Shown here piece after piece: positions 10,467-47,895 of a stretch of DNA of 51,784 bases. Within the stretch, counting starts at the first letter, position 1, and each line of letters begins with the position of its first letter. The translations under genes were made by a program, and so were the position numbers. The DNA is from an uncultured Gammaproteobacteria bacterium (lineage in GTDB: Bacteria; Patescibacteriota; Patescibacteriia; UBA1558; GWA2-36-10), in assembly GCA_964478385.1 (NCBI GenBank), contig CAYZIE010000001.1:1-51784 (forward strand), given 5' to 3'. A model generated the notes under the pieces. The model did not search any database. It saw only the letters and a program-made list of their open reading frames with translations, and had not been told where the DNA came from.

Positions 10467-11015
10467 TTAATTTTTTATATATTTAGAGTATTTCGATTTT
10501 CTTTTTTCTAAAAGTATACTTATATATCCTTTATCAATTATTTGATCTTTTTTAATATCTAGTTTATTTAATATTTCTTTTAATCTTTTTTTATTTAAAT
10601 CTTTATTATCTAAGGATTCTATTTCAATGTATTTGCCTAATTCTTTTATATTATCTAAACAAATAGTTAAATTGTTTATTTTGTATTCTTTTCTTTCTTT
10701 ATTTACTTCAATAATTTTATCTAATCCCATTGCTTTTAACATTTGTATTCCTTCTTTTTTATTGTCAATGTTAAATTCATATTCTTCATATATTCCATCT
10801 TTCTTTGTTTTTGATCCTTTGTATGTTAAATATGTATTATTTTTTTCTTTTCTAATTCTCATCATAAAAGAATAACCTATTTTTTTATACAGATTGATGT
10901 CTCCAAAATATATATCATTTTGCTTTACTTCTTTTATAAATTTAGTATTTAATTTTAAAAGTTTCTTTTCTACTTCTTTTAAACTATTTACTTTTGCTTT
11001 TATTTCTATTTCCAT
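10467..11015 (-). CDS. CYTH-domain protein (CyaB-type class IV adenylate cyclase / triphosphatase family)
   Basis: 182 aa. The N-terminal MEIEIKAKV carries the ExExK motif that defines CYTH. Confidence 0.75.
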   Translation of the reverse strand: MEIEIKAKVNSLKEVEKKLLKLNTKFIKEVKQNDIYFGDINLYKKIGYSFMMRIRKEKNNTYLTYKGSKTKKDGIYEEYEFNIDNKKEGIQMLKAMGLDKIIEVNKERKEYKINNLTICLDNIKELGKYIEIESLDNKDLNKKRLKEILNKLDIKKDQIIDKGYISILLEKRKSKYSKYIKN

Positions 11016-12226: not shown

Positions 12227-12290
12227 ATATTGACAGAATAATTATTTTATGGTAAGCCGATAGTAGAACTTTAAAATAAGGAGAGGTTAT

Positions 12291-12755
12291 ATGGAAGCAT
12301 ATATAAAGCAGCATCGCAGGAAAAGGGTTGTAACATTATTTAAACGTTTATTTGTTATTTGGTTCTTAGGAGTTATAGGGGTCTTATGGGTAGCAGGTGA
12401 CGCAATAACAGTTATAATTAGTGAAATTGGGAAAGCTGGAGTGATTGAAGCATTTAATATGATAATATTATTTATCTGGTTTTCAGCATGGTTATTATGG
12501 AATGCTTTTTACTTGGTAGACCCTGAAAGAATAGAGAATGTTGAGGCTTGGATAAATCCATCAATTTCTATGTTTATGCTTACCTTTTTCTTTGGAATAT
12601 TATTTTTATCTTCAACTGTAAGGAGTATTATGTTTTATAACACATATATGATGATATTTGGATTGTGTATAGGTGTGTATAATCTAATAATATTCATATT
12701 TGCAGTAAGAAGAGAATTTAAAAAAGCAAAAGTAAGAAGGTTTGAAGATCTTTAG
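12291..12755 (+). CDS. Multi-pass membrane protein, unknown function
   Basis: 154 aa with about 4 hydrophobic segments. Strong SD AAGGAGAGG lies 4 nt upstream. G+C is visibly above the neighbours (33-40% in the first 120 nt by my count). Confidence 0.6.
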   Translation: MEAYIKQHRRKRVVTLFKRLFVIWFLGVIGVLWVAGDAITVIISEIGKAGVIEAFNMIILFIWFSAWLLWNAFYLVDPERIENVEAWINPSISMFMLTFFFGILFLSSTVRSIMFYNTYMMIFGLCIGVYNLIIFIFAVRREFKKAKVRRFEDL

Positions 12756-12768
12756 ATGTGAGTAAATT

Positions 12769-12854
12769 CCCTAATATCATTGGCGCCTGAAAAGGAAGCA
12801 GTTGTCTATTTGCTAAAAGCATTAATGCAACACAATGGTATTGGGGATTTTTTT
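12769..12854 (+). terminator. Unusually long terminator-like hairpin (14-bp stem enclosing 50 nt, then U7)
   Basis: CCCTAATATCATTG (12769-12782) pairs with CAATGGTATTGGGG (12833-12846) with two G-U pairs. It is followed by A then TTTTTTT (12848-12854). Confidence 0.5.
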
Positions 12855-12901
12855 GTTTGAAAAGTTGCTTTTATGTTAATATATAGTATATAATTAAATA
12901 T

Positions 12902-28259: not shown

Positions 28260-28688
28260 ATGGCAGAAGAAAAAAAACAAGTTGAAGAAACTAAAGAAGA
28301 AAAAACAGTTGAAGTACCAGCTAAATTCAAAAGTATTGTAGAAGAAATTGAAAAAATGTCAGTACTTGATCTTTCTGAATTAGTATCTATTTTAGAAGAT
28401 AAGTTTGGTGTTAGTGCTGCTGCTCCTGTAGCAATGGCTGCTGCACCTGCTGCAGCTGAAGAAGCTGGAGAAGAAAAATCTTCTTTTGATGTAGAGTTAA
28501 CATCTGTTGGTGATAATAAGATTAATGTTATTAAAGCTATCAGAGAAATAACTCAATTAGGACTTAAAGAAGCTAAAGATATGGCTGATGGAGCTTCTAC
28601 AGTTGTTAAAGAAGGTGCTAGCAAAGAAGAGGCTGAAGAAATGAAAGCTAAACTTACTGAAGCTGGTGGTACTGTAACTTTGAAATAA
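28260..28688 (+). CDS. rplL: 50S ribosomal protein L7/L12
   Basis: Ala-rich hinge [17 protein letters not shown]-terminal [25 protein letters not shown]....EAGGTVTLK. Confidence 0.96.
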
Positions 28689-36963: not shown

Positions 36964-36968
36964 ATACT

Positions 36969-37511
36969 ATGGATATTAAAAAATATAAAAGAATAAATAT
37001 AATAGGTACAAGTGGTTGTGGGAAATCTACTATAGCTAAGAAATTAGCTAAATTGTTAAATTATGAATATATAGAAATGGATAGTATATTTTGGGGTCCT
37101 AATTGGGAAGAATCAAATTATGATTCTTTTTTTAAAAAATTAGAAAAAGAATTAAAAAAAGAAAAGTGGGTATTAGATGGTAATTATACAAAAAGTATAC
37201 CTTTAAAATGGAAGTATACGGATTTAGTTATATGGTTAGATTATTCATTTTTAAGAAATTTTTTTCAATCTTTTACTAGAGCTATAAAAAGATTAATAAC
37301 AAGAGAGGTATTATGGTCTAGTAGTGGTAATAAAGAAACATTAAAAGGTTTTTTTAGTAAAGAATCTATAGTACTGCATATGATAAAAAGTTATAACAGT
37401 AATAAAAAGAAGTATAATTTATATATAAAAGATAGTAATTTTTCTCATATTAAATTTATAAAACTAAAAAATCCTAAACAAGTAAAACAGTTTTTAAATA
37501 ATTTAAAGTAA
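36969..37511 (+). CDS. P-loop NTPase/kinase (adenylate-kinase-like, topology-modulation FlaR-like family)
   Basis: Start moved to the ATG at 36969 because the ORF-track start at 36903 runs through tRNA-Glu. Walker A is IIGTSGCGKSTIAKKL. Confidence 0.7.
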   Translation: MDIKKYKRINIIGTSGCGKSTIAKKLAKLLNYEYIEMDSIFWGPNWEESNYDSFFKKLEKELKKEKWVLDGNYTKSIPLKWKYTDLVIWLDYSFLRNFFQSFTRAIKRLITREVLWSSSGNKETLKGFFSKESIVLHMIKSYNSNKKKYNLYIKDSNFSHIKFIKLKNPKQVKQFLNNLK

Positions 37512-37514
37512 AAG

Positions 37515-37546
37515 AAAACCCCCAGTAGACGAATCTAGTGGGGGTT
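37515..37546. terminator. Bidirectional terminator (P-loop kinase gene / 112-aa gene)
   Basis: CCCCCAGTAG (37519-37528) pairs with CTAGTGGGGG (37535-37544) with one mismatch. The A-run before it gives a U-run on the minus strand. Confidence 0.7.
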
Positions 37547-37550
37547 GTAG

Positions 37551-37889
37551 TTACGAGGTGCAGTGGAGTTCAATCTGCTTCTGCAGATCGGAGATCGCTC
37601 CCTGGTCGTCCAGGCTATCAATCTCTTCCAGAACCATGTTCAGGTCACTCACAGGCTTTGCGAAGGCAAACGTGTTACAATCCATCACCGTGAAACTCAC
37701 AAGGCACCACGCGTTGTTGAGAGCACGCTTCGTGTCCTTCGGCCAGTCACGATGTGGGAATATGAACATCCCTTCGTGATTAGCCACGTAGCGCACCTGA
37801 CCATCCTTGAGCTGCCTCTTGAAAAACAGCAACTCGATGACAGTCGTGATCTGATCCCGTTCTTCGTTCTTGTTCTTGGGCTCAGACAT
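37551..37889 (-). CDS. 112-aa soluble protein of unknown function, foreign composition (about 52% G+C)
   Basis: AGGAGG at 37896-37901 lies 6 nt before the ATG. Third codon positions are G/C-rich and Lys is almost always AAG, unlike the rest of the window. No TM segment and no family recognised. Confidence 0.7.
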   Translation of the reverse strand: MSEPKNKNEERDQITTVIELLFFKRQLKDGQVRYVANHEGMFIFPHRDWPKDTKRALNNAWCLVSFTVMDCNTFAFAKPVSDLNMVLEEIDSLDDQGAISDLQKQIELHCTS

Positions 37890-37919
37890 CTTATTCCTCC
37901 TTGTTCAGGTTCTGTGCTC

Positions 37920-37936
37920 ATCACCAACTTGGTGAT
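37920..37936. promoter_or_regulatory. Perfect 17-nt palindrome ATCACCAACTTGGTGAT at the predicted transcript start (operator or 5' hairpin)
   Basis: 8-bp arms around a central C, located between the -10 box (37942-37947) and the SD (37896-37901). Confidence 0.55.
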
Positions 37937-37941
37937 ATATT

Positions 37942-37970
37942 ATATTAGCATATATTAAATATTTTGTCAA
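37942..37970 (-). promoter_or_regulatory. Strong promoter P1 (TTGACA-17-TGcTAATAT)
   Basis: On the minus strand, TTGACA is at 37970-37965, the spacer is 17 nt, and the extended -10 TGC-TAATAT ends at 37942. Confidence 0.65.
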
Positions 37971-37986
37971 TAGGGGAGTATATACT

Positions 37987-38026
37987 AAAAGAAAAGCCCC
38001 TTACTATGTAAATGGTTAAGGGGCTT
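37987..38026 (-). terminator. Intrinsic terminator of the 155-aa gene
   Basis: AAGCCCCTTA (37994-38003) pairs with TAAGGGGCTT (38017-38026). A U-run follows on the minus strand. Confidence 0.7.
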
Positions 38027-38035
38027 GTGAGAAGG

Positions 38036-38503
38036 TTATAAAACCTCCATAAGTACTGGTTTGTCAAAGAAGGTTGCTTCAGCTTTTTGATAGCTACTTT
38101 CAATATTGACAGTAGATATAACTTTACCTGAGTCTCTTTCAATAACCTCAATGACATACCTTCCTGTAGCAATTATACAGTGTCTGCTTTTCTGTATTGA
38201 ATCAAGATGTTTTCCATTCTTAAAAATATTCAAATACAGATTCTTTCTATCTCCCCAAGTAATTTTTGCTCTTGCTTTTTGATCGCTGATGGGATCAAAC
38301 TGCATAATAAGTATTTGTCCGTTTTGAAGAATTGCTGTTGATGTAATGCTTTTTGGTAAAGGCTTTACAAAAACTGCTGTTGGATTATCCCGATGTAGCA
38401 TGTGATTTCCAATCAACATACTGAAAAGGGAAAATATTACAATTGCTATTAATGCAATTGTGGCTATTACGGACACAATTTTTCGTTTCTCTGACTTTCT
38501 CAT
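38036..38503 (-). CDS. Membrane-anchored 155-aa protein, unknown function
   Basis: Start set at the ATG at 38503 (MRKSEKRK...), which is preceded by AGGAGGAG; the ORF-track start is 38548. One TM segment (IVSVIATIALIAIVIFSLFSML) followed by about 110 aa. Confidence 0.65.
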   Translation of the reverse strand: MRKSEKRKIVSVIATIALIAIVIFSLFSMLIGNHMLHRDNPTAVFVKPLPKSITSTAILQNGQILIMQFDPISDQKARAKITWGDRKNLYLNIFKNGKHLDSIQKSRHCIIATGRYVIEVIERDSGKVISTVNIESSYQKAEATFFDKPVLMEVL

Positions 38504-38548
38504 TTCTCCTCCTCGTTTAAATGAGTTTAGTGTTAATGAACTATACAC

Positions 38549-38577
38549 ATAGTAGCATATTTTAGTTATTTTGTCAA
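38549..38577 (-). promoter_or_regulatory. Strong promoter P2 (TTGACA-17-TGcTACTAT)
   Basis: On the minus strand, TTGACA is at 38577-38572 and the -10 TACTAT at 38554-38549, preceded by TGC. 25 of 29 positions are identical to P1. Confidence 0.65.
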
Positions 38578-38582
38578 GAGTA

Positions 38583-38615
38583 AAGAAAAACCCTTGTAAT
38601 ACTTTACAAGGGTTT
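38583..38615 (-). terminator. Intrinsic terminator of the 89-aa gene
   Basis: AAACCCTTGTAA (38588-38599), loop tact, TTACAAGGGTTT (38604-38615). A U-run follows on the minus strand. Confidence 0.75.
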
Positions 38616-38623
38616 TATTTTCT

Positions 38624-38893
38624 TTATTTTTCAAGATTTAGATATACGTTTGAATCTTTAAATCCTCTAGAAATTGAGTATATTATATTTAATATACCTA
38701 AAAGGATTATCCATGGTTGTTCTTTTAAATACAACCAAGATCTTGTTATGCTATCTTGACCAATTTGGGGATTGTATGAGTTACCTGTATCAGCTATGAA
38801 TGCAAGAGCCATAATTGATGCAATCATGTATAATATACATAATATCCCCGTTAGCGATGTAGTTAGTTGAATTTCACTAATTAATCTCTTCAT
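38624..38893 (-). CDS. 89-aa two-TM membrane protein, unknown function
   Basis: AAGGAG lies 8 nt upstream of the ATG. Hydrophobic segments are LTGILCILYMIASIMALAFI and PWIILLGILNIIYSI. Confidence 0.6.
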   Translation of the reverse strand: MKRLISEIQLTTSLTGILCILYMIASIMALAFIADTGNSYNPQIGQDSITRSWLYLKEQPWIILLGILNIIYSISRGFKDSNVYLNLEK

Positions 38894-38932
38894 TATTGTT
38901 TCTCCTTATGTTATTAATGAACAATACTATAT

Positions 38933-38961
38933 ATTATATCATATATTGTGTATCTTGTCAA
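38933..38961 (-). promoter_or_regulatory. Strong promoter P3 (TTGACA-17-TGaTATAAT)
   Basis: On the minus strand, TTGACA is at 38961-38956 and TATAAT at 38938-38933, preceded by TGA. Confidence 0.65.
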
Positions 38962-38980
38962 TGATAGTTAATATATTATG

Positions 38981-39009
38981 TTGACATTATATTTATTATT
39001 TGTTAGTAT
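38981..39009 (+). promoter_or_regulatory. rplU promoter (TTGACA-17-TAGTAT)
   Basis: TTGACA at 38981-38986 and TAGTAT at 39004-39009. Confidence 0.55.
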
Positions 39010-47820: not shown

Positions 47821-47895
47821 TCCGGGGTAGTTGAGTGGTACAACGCCACGCTGTTAACGTGGATATCGCAGGTTCGAGTCCTGCCCCCGGAGCCA
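47821..47895 (+). tRNA. tRNA-Asn (anticodon GTT), CCA encoded
   Basis: Acceptor TCCGGGG/CCCCGGA, D arm GTTG-AGTGGTA-CAAC, anticodon arm CCACG-CTGTTAA-CGTGG, T arm GCAGG-TTCGAGT-CCTGC, discriminator G, then CCA. 75 nt. Confidence 0.95.

What the first reader, a model, noticed from the sequence alone, without database searches (positions are those of the whole stretch)
37512..38977. Islet of three head-to-tail promoter-gene-terminator cassettes with three different base compositions
Three minus-strand genes of unknown function lie between the tRNA-Glu/P-loop kinase pair and rplU. They encode an 89-aa two-TM protein, a 155-aa anchored protein and a 112-aa soluble protein.

Each gene is a self-contained unit with a TTGACA -35 box, a 17-nt spacer, an extended -10 box (TGn), an AGGAG(G) SD and its own GC-rich hairpin terminator. 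The terminator of each unit lies within about 10-20 nt of the next promoter.

The rest of the window is organised very differently: operons with overlapping or abutting genes and essentially no SD.

Composition steps from about 29% G+C in the flanks to about 52% (37551-37889) and the mid-30s (38036-38503).

Stand-alone promoter/terminator-bounded genes of deviant composition are how prophage morons are defined. Here there is no phage, integrase or repeat context that I can see. This is the best candidate in the window for an undescribed accessory system, for example host interaction, exclusion/defence or toxin-immunity. I cannot assign a function.
Basis: partly seen in the sequence, partly recalled or inferred. 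Interest (0 to 1): 0.75.

Follow-up and report, generated by a model that had tools for sequence, protein, structure and literature searches.

The report
Hypervariable small-gene islet beside rplU
A 1.4-kb patch of three tiny genes, each with its own promoter and terminator, in an ultra-small marine bacterium is real; related species differ in it far more than in the DNA around it, and one gene keeps a DNA composition utterly unlike its genome, but what the genes do is still unknown.

Summary
Three minus-strand ORFs (89, 155 and 112 aa) each have a TTGACA-17-TGnTAnnnT promoter, an AGGAG(G) SD and a hairpin terminator. The 112-aa gene has GC3 0.70, against 0.11 +/- 0.04 for host genes.

The islet is identical in 13 independent metagenome contigs, so it is not a misassembly. 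The host is a Patescibacteria (CPR) genome.

The interpretation needs revision.
- **Not a recent insertion.** The anchored-protein and 112-aa-family cassettes sit at the same rplU...tRNA/murF locus in all seven other lineages sampled from the clade (five have both cassettes, L020 only the anchored one, L097 has no flanks), with the same cassette build and the same excess GC.
- **Not a three-gene system.** The 89-aa cassette is lineage-specific.
- **Older than its flanks.** Flanks are about 90% identical to the sister species and the islet 50-78%, with sharp borders. dS is about 2-4 in the islet and 0.3-0.5 in the flanks. In the sister genus RecR is 99.5% identical and the anchored protein 32%. 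This behaves like a miniature replacement genomic islet.
- **GC-rich codons look maintained.** They do not look like a transfer scar, and the islet mRNAs fold better than synonymous shuffles (mean z -3.8 vs -0.9).

No known family, fold, defence, phage or plasmid match was found. Function remains inferred: abundant envelope-associated proteins.

The parts
37515..38960 (-). Hypervariable islet as a whole (three mono-cistronic cassettes). Its borders are defined by the drop in identity to the sister species.
   Evidence: Window vs L017: flanks 88-100% identical, islet 0-78%. Identity drops between the divergent rplU and g89 promoters on one side and at the g112 terminator / kinase stop codon on the other. 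BLAST joins 8768 nt at 89.6% and 632 nt at 91.9% on either side, and only 278 nt at 70% inside.
38981..39009 (+). rplU promoter (TTGACA-17-TGtTAGTAT), divergent from cassette 1. It is the host reference for this promoter class.
   Evidence: It is the only other full match to the extended consensus in the window.
38933..38961 (-). Cassette 1 promoter: TTGACA-17-TGaTATAAT (12 of 12 consensus positions).
38902..38927 (-). Cassette 1 leader, with the GTTCATTAA motif shared with the g155 leader, and the SD AAGGAG.
   Evidence: Direct repeats D4 and D8 between the g89 and g155 leaders. The same GTTCATT motif is in the anchored-gene leaders of L016, L020 and L021.
38624..38893 (-). g89: an 89-aa small membrane protein (one clear TM plus a shorter hydrophobic segment). 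It is a lineage-specific ORFan.
   Evidence: Only self-hits among 5.8 billion clusters. Absent from L016/L017.
38578..38616 (-). Cassette 1 intrinsic terminator: 13-bp stem plus a T-run.
38549..38577 (-). Cassette 2 promoter: TTGACA-17-TGcTACTAT.
   Evidence: 84% identical over 32 nt to the cassette 3 promoter.
38508..38513 (-). Cassette 2 SD: AGGAGG.
38036..38503 (-). g155: an N-terminally anchored 155-aa protein (basic N-terminus, one TM, about 115-aa C-terminal domain presumably outside the cell).
   Evidence: Homologues at the same locus in L017/L016 (51% identity) and L015 (72%). dN/dS 0.14 vs L015.
37987..38024 (-). Cassette 2 terminator: GCCCCTTA ... TAAGGGGC plus TTTTCTTTT.
   Evidence: Read. 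Stems are kept in L015 and L016 despite sequence changes.
37942..37970 (-). Cassette 3 promoter: TTGACA-17-TGcTAATAT.
   Evidence: Conserved in L015, L016 and L019.
37920..37936 (-). 5'-terminal stem-loop of the g112 mRNA (ATCACC-loop-GGTGAT), starting at the predicted transcription start.
   Evidence: The stem is kept with changed bases in L015 and L016, and a larger stem is present in L019.
37896..37901 (-). Cassette 3 SD: AGGAGG.
37551..37889 (-). g112: an acidic soluble 112-aa protein with one copy of an undescribed ~85-aa domain. GC 51%, GC3 0.70, codon usage the inverse of the host's.
   Evidence: Homologues P0002 (83%), P0003 (61%) and the two-domain P0006. Two-domain versions in L018, L019 and L021.
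37511..37545 (-). Cassette 3 terminator: 11-position stem (10 base pairs, 1 mismatch) plus TTTTCTTT. It abuts the stop codon of the convergent kinase-like gene.
   Evidence: Compensatory changes in L015.

Best explanation
**What it is.** Window ~37515-38960 is a small, clade-specific replacement islet in a marine Patescibacteria (CPR) chromosome. It lies between rplU and the tRNA-Glu / kinase-like / murF block.

**How it is built.** It consists of autonomous single-gene expression cassettes. Each has:
- a host-type consensus promoter with an extended -10 box;
- a leader carrying a strong SD (and, for g112, a 5'-terminal stem-loop);
- a small ORF;
- an intrinsic terminator.

**Which cassettes belong together.**
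- Two cassettes form a conserved pair. One encodes an N-terminally membrane-anchored small protein (g155). The other encodes an acidic cytosolic protein with one or two copies of an undescribed ~85-aa domain (g112).
- The third cassette (g89) is a lineage-specific addition. It re-uses the g155-type promoter and leader.

**How it evolves.** Islet alleles are exchanged between lineages by homologous recombination in the conserved housekeeping flanks. The conserved promoter/leader and terminator sequences may also serve as recombination handles. As a result, islet alleles are much older than the flanking DNA.

**Why g112 is GC-rich.** The anti-host, GC-rich codon usage of the g112 family is a maintained property, not a trace of recent transfer. 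The most likely cause is selection at the mRNA level for stable, strongly folded, highly expressed transcripts.

**What it does.** The products are most likely abundant envelope-associated proteins used in the cell's dealings with its host or its phages.

**Shown:** the architecture; conservation at the locus; hyperdivergence with sharp borders; purifying selection on both proteins; the persistent GC3 excess; the excess mRNA folding.

**Inferred:** high expression; recombination as the exchange mechanism; selection on mRNA stability; the envelope / host-interaction role.
For: **Architecture.**

**Same build in relatives.**
- The cassette build is present in L015, L016, L019, L020 and L021.
- In L017-L019 every extended-consensus promoter in the 13-18 kb locus lies upstream of rplU (3 of 3), as do 2 of 2 in L020 and 3 of 4 in L021. 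More distant Patescibacteria with the same recR-rplU synteny have at most one there.

**Pair conserved at the locus.**. The family link runs through P0006 (library-wide E 2.8e-5). P0006 vs the L021 249-aa protein gives E 9e-8.

**Hyperdivergence, window vs L017.**
- Flank dN 0.03-0.07 and dS 0.27-0.47.
- g155 dN 0.50, dS ~4.
- g112 dN 0.33, dS ~2.
- rplU, which has the same promoter class, stays 88-95% identical.

**Independent replicate in the sister genus.**
- L020 vs L021: RecR 99.5%, MurF 92.7%, anchored protein 32%, and different gene content.
- L019 vs L021: RecR 88%, domain protein 25%.

**Purifying selection.** dN/dS is 0.10-0.14 for window vs L015.

**GC3 excess.**
- GC3 is 0.70, 0.61, 0.58, 0.74, 0.74 and 0.82 in six lineages whose host genes are at 0.11-0.42.
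- The excess persists among alleles whose synonymous sites are saturated.

**No GC-rich donor.** An exhaustive search of 1.84 billion representative proteins found no family member outside the few contigs described here.

**mRNA folding.**
- Against synonymous-codon shuffles, islet genes have mean z -3.8 (12 genes) and host genes -0.9 (17 genes); Mann-Whitney p = 2.5e-4.
- Ribosomal protein genes rplL and rplU also score -4.0 and -2.9.

**Not an assembly artefact.** Identical sequence in 13 independent contigs.
Against: - There are no expression data. Promoter, SD and terminator are consensus matches only.
- The anchored proteins of the two sub-clades are not demonstrably homologous: hhalign E 0.12, and no BLASTP hit between L019 and L021. 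'Conserved pair' therefore rests partly on architecture and position.
- RNA covariation in the g112 mRNA is not supported with three sequences (covariation term +1.05).
- Polarised synonymous changes are mixed: window branch 7 W>S vs 2 S>W, but L015 branch 1 vs 11. The outgroup is saturated.
- Strongly anti-host codons could just as well throttle translation as stabilise the mRNA.
- The window's own population shows almost no variation in the islet. The variability is between species, not strains.
- Structure prediction failed (pLDDT 46-48), so no fold supports the envelope or host-interaction role.
Confidence: 0.5

Rival explanations
1. Recent horizontal acquisition. The cassettes, above all g112, are foreign DNA newly imported from a GC-rich donor. 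Their composition is an unameliorated transfer scar, possibly re-imported repeatedly at a hotspot next to tRNA genes.
For: - GC3 of 0.70 in a genome at 0.11, and inverse codon usage.
- SD-led translation in a genome that mostly lacks SDs.
- The islet adjoins tRNA genes.
- Islet alleles have a different history from the flanks.
- The L015 branch shows 11 S>W vs 1 W>S synonymous changes, as expected for amelioration.
Against: - The family is found only in this Patescibacteria clade, among 1.84 billion representative proteins.
- It sits at the same locus in every lineage and is always GC-richer than its genome.
- Three alleles living in AT-rich genomes differ by saturated dS yet all keep GC3 >= 0.58.
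- Promoters and leaders are host-type and conserved across the clade.
- The window branch shows a net W>S gain.
- There are no integrase, phage or plasmid relatives.
Confidence: 0.17
2. A toxin-immunity, exclusion or anti-phage defence module. The anchored protein and the acidic cytosolic protein act as effector and neutraliser (or sensor and effector). Arms-race selection explains the hypervariability.
For: - The two genes co-occur across lineages.
- They are hyperdivergent at a fixed locus, as in defence or immunity hotspots.
- The partner is small and acidic.
- The anti-host codon usage could keep a dangerous product low.
Against: - No PADLOC, Pfam, PHROG or NCBIfam match, even at E <= 1-5.
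- The genes are separate transcription units with their own terminators, not a co-translated operon.
- Gene order is inverted in L018/L021.
- L020 has the anchored gene without the partner.
- dN/dS of 0.10-0.14 shows purifying rather than diversifying selection.
Confidence: 0.12
3. The GC-rich segment is primarily a structured non-coding or dual-function RNA. GC-rich islands in AT-rich genomes are a classic ncRNA signature, and on this reading the 112-codon ORF is secondary or spurious.
For: - GC 51% vs 26%, with its own promoter and terminator.
- The transcript folds with z -4.95 against dinucleotide shuffles.
- The CDS folds with z -2.6 to -6.1 against synonymous shuffles in three lineages.
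- A conserved 17-bp hairpin lies at 37741-37785.
Against: - The ORF is kept in all lineages, with in-frame indels.
- dN/dS is 0.10-0.16.
- A perfect AGGAGG SD precedes the start codon.
- Amino-acid motifs are conserved as far as the two-domain proteins at ~25-30% identity.
- No Rfam match, even at E <= 1, other than terminator hairpins.
- No net covariation support.
- The long antisense ORF is a codon-aligned by-product of the absence of TTA, CTA and TCA codons, and it is broken in L017.
Confidence: 0.06
4. Local acceleration rather than replacement. The islet genes are vertically inherited but mutate or evolve many times faster than their neighbours, for example through transcription-associated mutagenesis or relaxed constraint on young ORFan genes.
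For: - dN and dS are both raised about 5-10-fold.
- The genes are predicted to be very highly transcribed.
- Gene order and the flanks are otherwise collinear.
Against: - rplU, driven by the same promoter class a few dozen bases away, is not accelerated: 88-95% identity.
- The borders are abrupt and coincide with cassette edges.
- Gene content and order differ between near-identical flanks. L020 vs L021 has RecR 99.5% but anchored protein 32%, with one gene missing. Order is inverted in L021 relative to L019.
Confidence: 0.1
5. Assembly chimera joining DNA of two organisms at 37.5-38.0 kb.
For: - An abrupt GC step.
- The 112-aa gene is recovered as a called protein only on short contigs.
Against: - The 1.7-kb region, including both junctions, is 100% identical in 13 independent contigs from 13 samples and three projects. 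Eight of these contigs span it completely.
- The short-contig pattern arises because gene callers skip the gene on long contigs.
- Sister species have the same arrangement.
Confidence: 0.01

Closest known systems
Replacement flexible genomic islands of aquatic prokaryotes (Lopez-Perez, Martin-Cuadrado & Rodriguez-Valera 2014, PMC4033161)
   Same: - It occupies the same chromosomal position in all relatives.
- The flanks are conserved housekeeping genes, and the borders are sharp.
- The content is highly divergent or different, with a history older than the flanks.
- Substitutions rise towards the border: the 3' end of the kinase gene drops to 70% identity.
- At least one product is membrane-exposed.
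- Exchange by homologous recombination is the natural mechanism.
   Different: - It is tiny: 1.4 kb and 2-3 genes, against tens of kb of glycosyltransferase or surface-structure genes.
- It is built from individually promoted and terminated cassettes.
- Its composition is GC-richer than the genome.
- It includes a cytosolic protein.
- The variation is seen between species and genera, not among strains of one population. The window's population is essentially clonal here.
Prophage morons (autonomous promoter-gene-terminator units of deviant composition in lambdoid phages; from established knowledge)
   Same: - Each gene is a self-contained transcription unit.
- Composition deviates from the surroundings.
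- One cassette (g89) shows presence/absence between close relatives.
   Different: - It is not in a phage or prophage, and has no phage relatives.
- Two of the three cassettes are conserved at a housekeeping locus across a clade.
- The promoters are of the host's own class.
Integron gene cassettes / CALINs (from established knowledge)
   Same: - It is an array of short single-gene cassettes in one orientation.
- Each cassette ends in an imperfect inverted repeat.
- Cassette number and order vary between relatives.
   Different: - No integrase lies within about 7-9 kb.
- Each cassette has its own promoter.
- The inverted repeats are followed by T-runs and behave as intrinsic terminators.
- The shared sequences are promoter/leader and terminator tails, not attC cores.
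mRNAs stabilised by 5'-terminal stem-loops for abundant envelope proteins (for example the E. coli ompA leader and B. subtilis aprE; from established knowledge)
   Same: - The transcripts are mono-cistronic.
- They combine a strong promoter, a hairpin at the very 5' end (g112), a strong SD and an efficient terminator.
- The coding region is unusually well folded.
   Different: - Nothing is measured here.
- The hairpin is short (6 bp).
- The extreme recoding of a whole CDS to GC-rich codons is not part of those paradigms.

Membership tests
Prophage moron | Autonomous transcription unit: own promoter and own terminator | tested here: met
   Consensus promoter and hairpin terminator for each gene. 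This is sequence evidence only.
Prophage moron | Inserted between genes of a phage or prophage | tested here: not met
   Neighbours are rplU, recR, ybaB, dnaB, tRNA-Glu, a kinase-like gene, murF and ftsI. No viral or phage relatives.
Prophage moron | Present in some and absent from other closely related genomes | tested here: inconclusive
   True for g89, which is absent in L016/L017. False for the g155 and g112 families, which are present in five of the six lineages sampled with flanks.
Replacement flexible genomic island | Same locus in all related genomes, bounded by conserved core genes | tested here: met
   The rplU ... tRNA/murF interval in window, L016/L017, L018, L019, L020 and L021.
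Replacement flexible genomic island | Content far more divergent than the flanks, with sharp borders (history discordant with the core) | tested here: met
Replacement flexible genomic island | Encodes exposed cell structures | tested here: inconclusive
   g155 and its positional counterparts have an N-terminal anchor with the bulk of the protein predicted outside the cell. g112 is cytosolic. There are no localisation data.
Replacement flexible genomic island | Different versions among strains of one species | tested here: not met
   13 contigs of the window's species are identical. Only 1-2 aa variants of g155 are on record. Different versions appear at about 90% flank identity and beyond.
Integron cassette array | Integron integrase (IntI) adjacent | tested here: not met
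   Pfam labels of all called genes within about 5.8-9.4 kb of the islet list no recombinase.
Integron cassette array | attC recombination site at the end of each promoter-less cassette | tested here: not met
   Cassettes carry their own promoters. Their terminal hairpins are followed by T-runs, like terminators. No formal attC model was run.
Type II toxin-antitoxin / known anti-phage defence systems | Match to a known toxin, antitoxin or defence protein family | tested here: not met
   PADLOC, Pfam, NCBIfam and PHROGs gave nothing significant for any of the three proteins or their relatives.
Type II toxin-antitoxin / known anti-phage defence systems | Two genes co-transcribed as one tight operon | tested here: not met
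   Each gene has its own promoter and terminator. Order is inverted in L018/L021.
Diversity-generating retroelement target | Within-population hypervariation, plus a nearby template repeat and reverse transcriptase | tested here: not met
   No within-population variation. No internal repeat of that kind. No RT among the neighbours.
Known structured RNA family (Rfam) | Covariance-model match at or near the gathering score | tested here: not met
   Only tRNAs at gathering score. At E <= 1 there are only sub-threshold hits on terminator hairpins.

The most novel reading that the evidence does not exclude
A clade of Patescibacteria keeps, beside rplU, a dedicated expression slot. Small-protein genes are exchanged there as ready-made promoter-leader-ORF-terminator cassettes by homologous recombination through the conserved regulatory handles. 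This would be an integrase-free functional analogue of an integron.

The core cassette (the g112 family) is held by selection at a codon usage opposite to that of its genome. The reason would be that the mRNA, hyper-stable or otherwise functional as RNA, matters as much as the protein. It would be a clear natural case of long-term selection on whole-gene GC content against extreme AT mutation pressure.
Probability: 0.2. Interest if true: 0.75.

Novelty: new variant of a known kind. Interest (0 to 1): 0.55.

Why it matters
**Symbiont biology.** CPR/Patescibacteria are obligate symbionts, and most of their host-interaction biology is unknown. This locus is reserved, clade-wide, for strongly expressed small membrane and cytosolic proteins that are replaced between sister species sharing a water sample. 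That makes it a concrete candidate for what sets host or phage specificity.

**GC content evolution.** The g112 family offers a rare natural test of whether GC content or mRNA structure is itself selected.
- Its codon usage is the inverse of its genome's (GC3 0.70 vs 0.11).
- That usage has persisted through saturating synonymous divergence.
- It has persisted in genomes of different GC.
- The usual explanation for such outliers is recent transfer, which does not fit here.

**A practical warning.** Gene callers skip this gene on long contigs. Such families are therefore systematically missing from protein databases.

Tried and rejected
**Family and structure searches: no function found.**
- Pfam, PHROGs, PADLOC and NCBIfam scans of the three proteins and seven relatives found nothing significant.
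- Profile searches against PDB sequences gave only noise, E >= 0.09.
- AlphaFold2 on g112 with 3- and 5-row alignments gave pLDDT 46 and 48.
- Foldseek against PDB had a best E of 0.12.
- An AbrB/MazE-like swapped-hairpin resemblance of the 'G-x-hydrophobic-F-P-H-R-D' segment was considered by eye. No search supports it, so it was dropped.

**Searches for further relatives.**
- The word-index search found 2 homologues of g112 and none for g155 or g89.
- The exhaustive HMMER search added only P0006.
- Viral contigs, phage genomes and plasmids: nothing.

**Homology between the two anchored-protein types.** The window/L017 type and the L019-L021/L097 type are not significantly related, so only architecture and position link them.

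**RNA hypotheses.**
- Rfam at gathering score and at E <= 1 found nothing.
- RNAalifold on three sequences gave no net covariation.

**Antisense gene.** Rejected. The ORF is codon-aligned, is explained by missing TTA, CTA and TCA codons, and is broken in L017.

**Polarising synonymous changes.** The signal was mixed and the outgroup is saturated.

**Literature.** No description of this locus or of the families was found.

**L098.** This contig diverges from the window in its last 90 nt, inside g89. The tail matches nothing fetched. It was left as a possible variant or a contig-end artefact.

Full report
**1.

On the minus strand of window 37512-38977 there are three ORFs: 89 aa (38624-38893), 155 aa (38036-38503) and 112 aa (37551-37889).

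Promoters:
- Each ORF is preceded by TTGACA, a 17-nt spacer and an extended -10 box (TGnTAnnnT). The sites are 38933-38961 (12 of 12 consensus positions), 38549-38577 and 37942-37970.
- The full pattern occurs only four times in the 51.8-kb window. The fourth copy is the divergent rplU promoter at 38981-39009.
- Chance expectation is 0.11.

Shine-Dalgarno sites:
- Each gene has an AGGAG(G) SD.
- In a generous test only 6 of 49 genes in the window do.
- Several host genes instead have TGnTATAAT directly in front of the ATG, which suggests leaderless mRNAs.

Terminators:
- Each gene ends in a GC-rich hairpin plus a T-run.
- The stems are kept through compensatory changes in relatives.

Composition and protein features:
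- The window is 26.4% GC. g112 is 51.3%, g155 33.3% and g89 28.9%.
- GC3 is 0.70, 0.26 and 0.21, against 0.114 +/- 0.04 for 38 host ORFs.
- g112 uses AAG 8 of 8 times for Lys, CAG 6 of 6 for Gln and CTG/CTC 8 of 10 for Leu. The host uses the A/T-ending synonyms about 90% of the time.
- g155 has a basic N-terminus and one strong hydrophobic segment. g89 has one clear hydrophobic segment; a second, shorter stretch read from the sequence did not reach the scan threshold. g112 has none, and its pI is 5.1.

**2. It is not an assembly artefact**

The 1.7 kb around the islet, including both composition steps, is 100% identical in 13 independent contigs from 13 samples of three projects. Eight of the contigs span it entirely.

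The 112-aa protein appears only on short contigs in the protein index because gene callers skip it on long contigs. The DNA is present there.

Only 1-2-residue variants of g155 are on record. The population is therefore essentially clonal at this locus.

**3. Organism**

RecR relatives in species-representative genomes are Patescibacteria MAGs: 94% identity for L017 and 72-73% for L018-L021. The neighbours are housekeeping genes: the dcw genes, murF, tRNA-Glu, a kinase-like P-loop protein, rplU, recR, ybaB and dnaB.

**4. What relatives show**

*(a) The sister species* (L016 and L017; L016 comes from the same sample as window-type contig L006) has the arrangement rplU - 150-aa anchored protein (51% identical to g155) - 148-aa homologue of g112 (61%) - kinase. 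It has no g89. L015 carries a third allele pair, at 72% and 83% identity.

*(b) The sister genus* carries the same kind of islet at the same place.
- L019 has a 124-aa anchored protein followed by a 294-aa GC-rich protein.
- L018 and L021 have a 249-aa GC-rich protein followed by a 132/134-aa anchored protein, so the order is inverted.
- L020 has a 126-aa anchored protein plus a 45-aa TM ORF.
- L097, a short contig, has a 130-aa anchored protein followed by a 225-aa GC-rich protein.

*(c) Family links for the GC-rich proteins.*
- The long GC-rich proteins carry two copies of the g112 domain.
- P0006 matches the g112 profile with a library-wide E of 2.8e-5.
- P0006 aligns with the L021 protein over its full length, E 9e-8.
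- An HMM of the domain finds L018, L019, L021 and L097.

*(d) The anchored proteins* of the two sub-clades are not demonstrably homologous. Their equivalence rests on architecture and position.

*(e) The cassette build is conserved.*
- TTGACA-17-TGnTAnnnT promoters, SD-bearing leaders and terminators are found throughout.
- In L017-L019 every extended-consensus promoter of the 13-18 kb locus lies in the stretch upstream of rplU, as do 2 of 2 in L020 and 3 of 4 in L021.
- More distant Patescibacteria with recR-rplU synteny have at most one there and no comparable GC step.

**5. The islet has a different history from its flanks**

Window vs L017:
- 8.8 kb on one side aligns at 89.6% and 0.6 kb on the other at 91.9%. 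Only 278 nt inside the islet aligns, at 70%.
- Identity falls from 88-100% to 0-78% between the divergent promoters and at the g112 terminator.
- Flank genes have dN 0.03-0.07 and dS 0.27-0.47. g155 has dN 0.50 and dS ~4. g112 has dN 0.33 and dS ~2.
- Among codons with an unchanged amino acid, 46-57% differ in the islet, against 11-19% in the flanks.
- rplU, driven by the same promoter class, is not accelerated.

The sister genus repeats the pattern independently:
- L020 vs L021: RecR 99.5%, MurF 92.7%, anchored protein 32%, and different gene content.
- L019 vs L021: RecR 88%, domain protein 25%.

For the closest pair, window vs L015, dN/dS is 0.10-0.14. Both proteins are therefore under purifying selection. 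The divergence reflects old alleles, not runaway positive selection.

The simplest reading is allele or cassette replacement by homologous recombination in the conserved flanks. This is the behaviour described for replacement flexible genomic islands (PMC4033161).

The g89 cassette re-uses the g155-type leader. The leader motif TTAATGAAC(T/A)ATAC is 93% identical between the two (D8), and the three cassette promoters are 72-84% alike over 32 nt (D1). This suggests that cassettes are added through these shared handles. That step is an inference.

**6. The GC anomaly looks maintained**

- GC3 of the g112 family is 0.70 (window), 0.61 (L015), 0.58 (L017), 0.74 (L019), 0.74 (L021) and 0.82 (L097). 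Host genes are at 0.11-0.16 in the first group and about 0.4 in the second.
- The three alleles that live in AT-rich genomes are separated by saturated synonymous divergence yet all stay GC-rich. Neutral sites should have decayed towards the host value.
- No GC-rich donor lineage is visible among 1.84 billion representative proteins.
- Intergenic parts of the islet are AT-rich and host-like.
- The adjacent g155 gene is only mildly elevated in the AT-rich lineages. A regional mutational process, such as biased gene conversion or transcription-associated mutation, therefore fits poorly.
- Polarised synonymous changes are mixed and weak: the window branch has 7 W>S vs 2 S>W, the L015 branch 1 vs 11.

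**7. A candidate selective target is the mRNA**

- With amino-acid sequence and codon usage held fixed, islet CDSs fold better than synonymous shuffles.
  - g112 family: z -2.6, -5.0, -6.1, -5.5, -2.0 and -4.0.
  - Anchored genes: z -2.3, -7.2, -3.3, -3.2 and -1.3.
  - g89: z -3.1.
- The islet mean is -3.8 and the mean of 17 host genes is -0.9 (Mann-Whitney p = 2.5e-4).
- The host genes that score similarly include rplL and rplU.
- The g112 transcript starts with a stem-loop that is kept, with changed bases, in relatives.
- Together with the best promoters in the neighbourhood and SDs that are rare in this genome, this points to very high, stabilised expression. Nothing has been measured.
- A conserved global RNA structure is not supported, and no Rfam family matches.
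- The ORF is clearly coding: in-frame indels, low dN/dS and conserved motifs.
- The long antisense ORF is a by-product of the absence of TTA, CTA and TCA codons. It is broken in L017.

**8. Function**

No known family, fold, defence system, phage or plasmid relative was found. Structure prediction failed.

My best inference is that these are abundant small envelope-associated proteins: a membrane-anchored, outward-facing protein with a cytosolic partner, plus optional tiny membrane proteins. They would be involved in the symbiont's interaction with hosts or phages. I hold this with modest confidence. Defence or toxin-immunity cannot be excluded, but no positive evidence supports either.

**9. 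Verdict**

- The 'moron-like accessory system' reading is partly right: the units are autonomous, of deviant composition and variable.
- It is wrong in treating the three genes as one recently acquired unit.
- The islet is best filed as a new, miniature, cassette-built variant of a replacement genomic islet.
- It carries two undescribed protein families and an unusual codon-usage anomaly that appears to be maintained by selection.

Noticed in passing
window 12229-12860 (+): A fourth stand-alone unit of similar build lies just after the GAPDH terminator. It has TTGACA at 12230, the SD AAGGAGAGG and a 154-aa multi-TM ORFan (12291-12755) with no Pfam match. Its GC3 is 0.25, the top of the host range. 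A long hairpin terminator follows.
   Followed up: partly
window, e.g. upstream of the ORFs starting at 2526, 12887, 15088, 44969 and 47858: Most genes lack an SD (6 of 49 have a 5-mer SD). Several have an extended -10 box (TGnTATAAT) ending a few bases before the ATG. This organism probably translates many leaderless mRNAs.
   Followed up: partly
L098:1565-1657 (equivalent to window ~38665 downwards): One contig of the same population is identical to the window up to codon ~77 of g89. It then diverges for its last ~90 nt into sequence that matches nothing fetched. This is either a rare strain variant of the islet or a contig-end artefact.
   Followed up: partly
L017:1-2327 vs window beyond 47658: The sister species stops aligning with the window next to tRNA-Asn (47821-47895). 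This is a second variable segment adjoining a tRNA gene.
   Followed up: no
L006, L007, L008, L009, L010 etc., between the 155-aa gene and the kinase gene: Gene callers did not call the GC-rich 112-aa gene on any long contig, although the DNA is identical. Compositionally atypical genes of this kind are under-represented in protein databases.
   Followed up: yes
L020:11990-12330; also L019:12640-12740: Two ~60-nt GC-rich repeat units (...GAGCGAAGTCGCGTCAGACGCGA...) are interleaved with the tRNA genes that border the islet in the sister genus.
   Followed up: no
window 37741-37785 (-): An imperfect ~17-bp hairpin lies exactly under the most conserved peptide motif of g112 (ANHEGMFIFPHRDW). It is kept in all three close alleles, with G-U wobbles.
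   Followed up: partly
window 36966-37511 (+): The P-loop 'kinase' next to the islet is closest to NCBIfam 'DNA topology modulation protein' models (E 2e-27, below the cut-off). It is present in the window and L017, absent between the islet and the tRNAs in L019 and L020, and replaced by a different gene in L021. Only a ~25-nt remnant of its 3' end follows the terminator in L015.
   Followed up: partly
window 28260-28688 (+) and 10467-11015 (-): rplL and a CYTH-domain gene also fold much better than synonymous shuffles, z -4.0 and -3.2.
   Followed up: no
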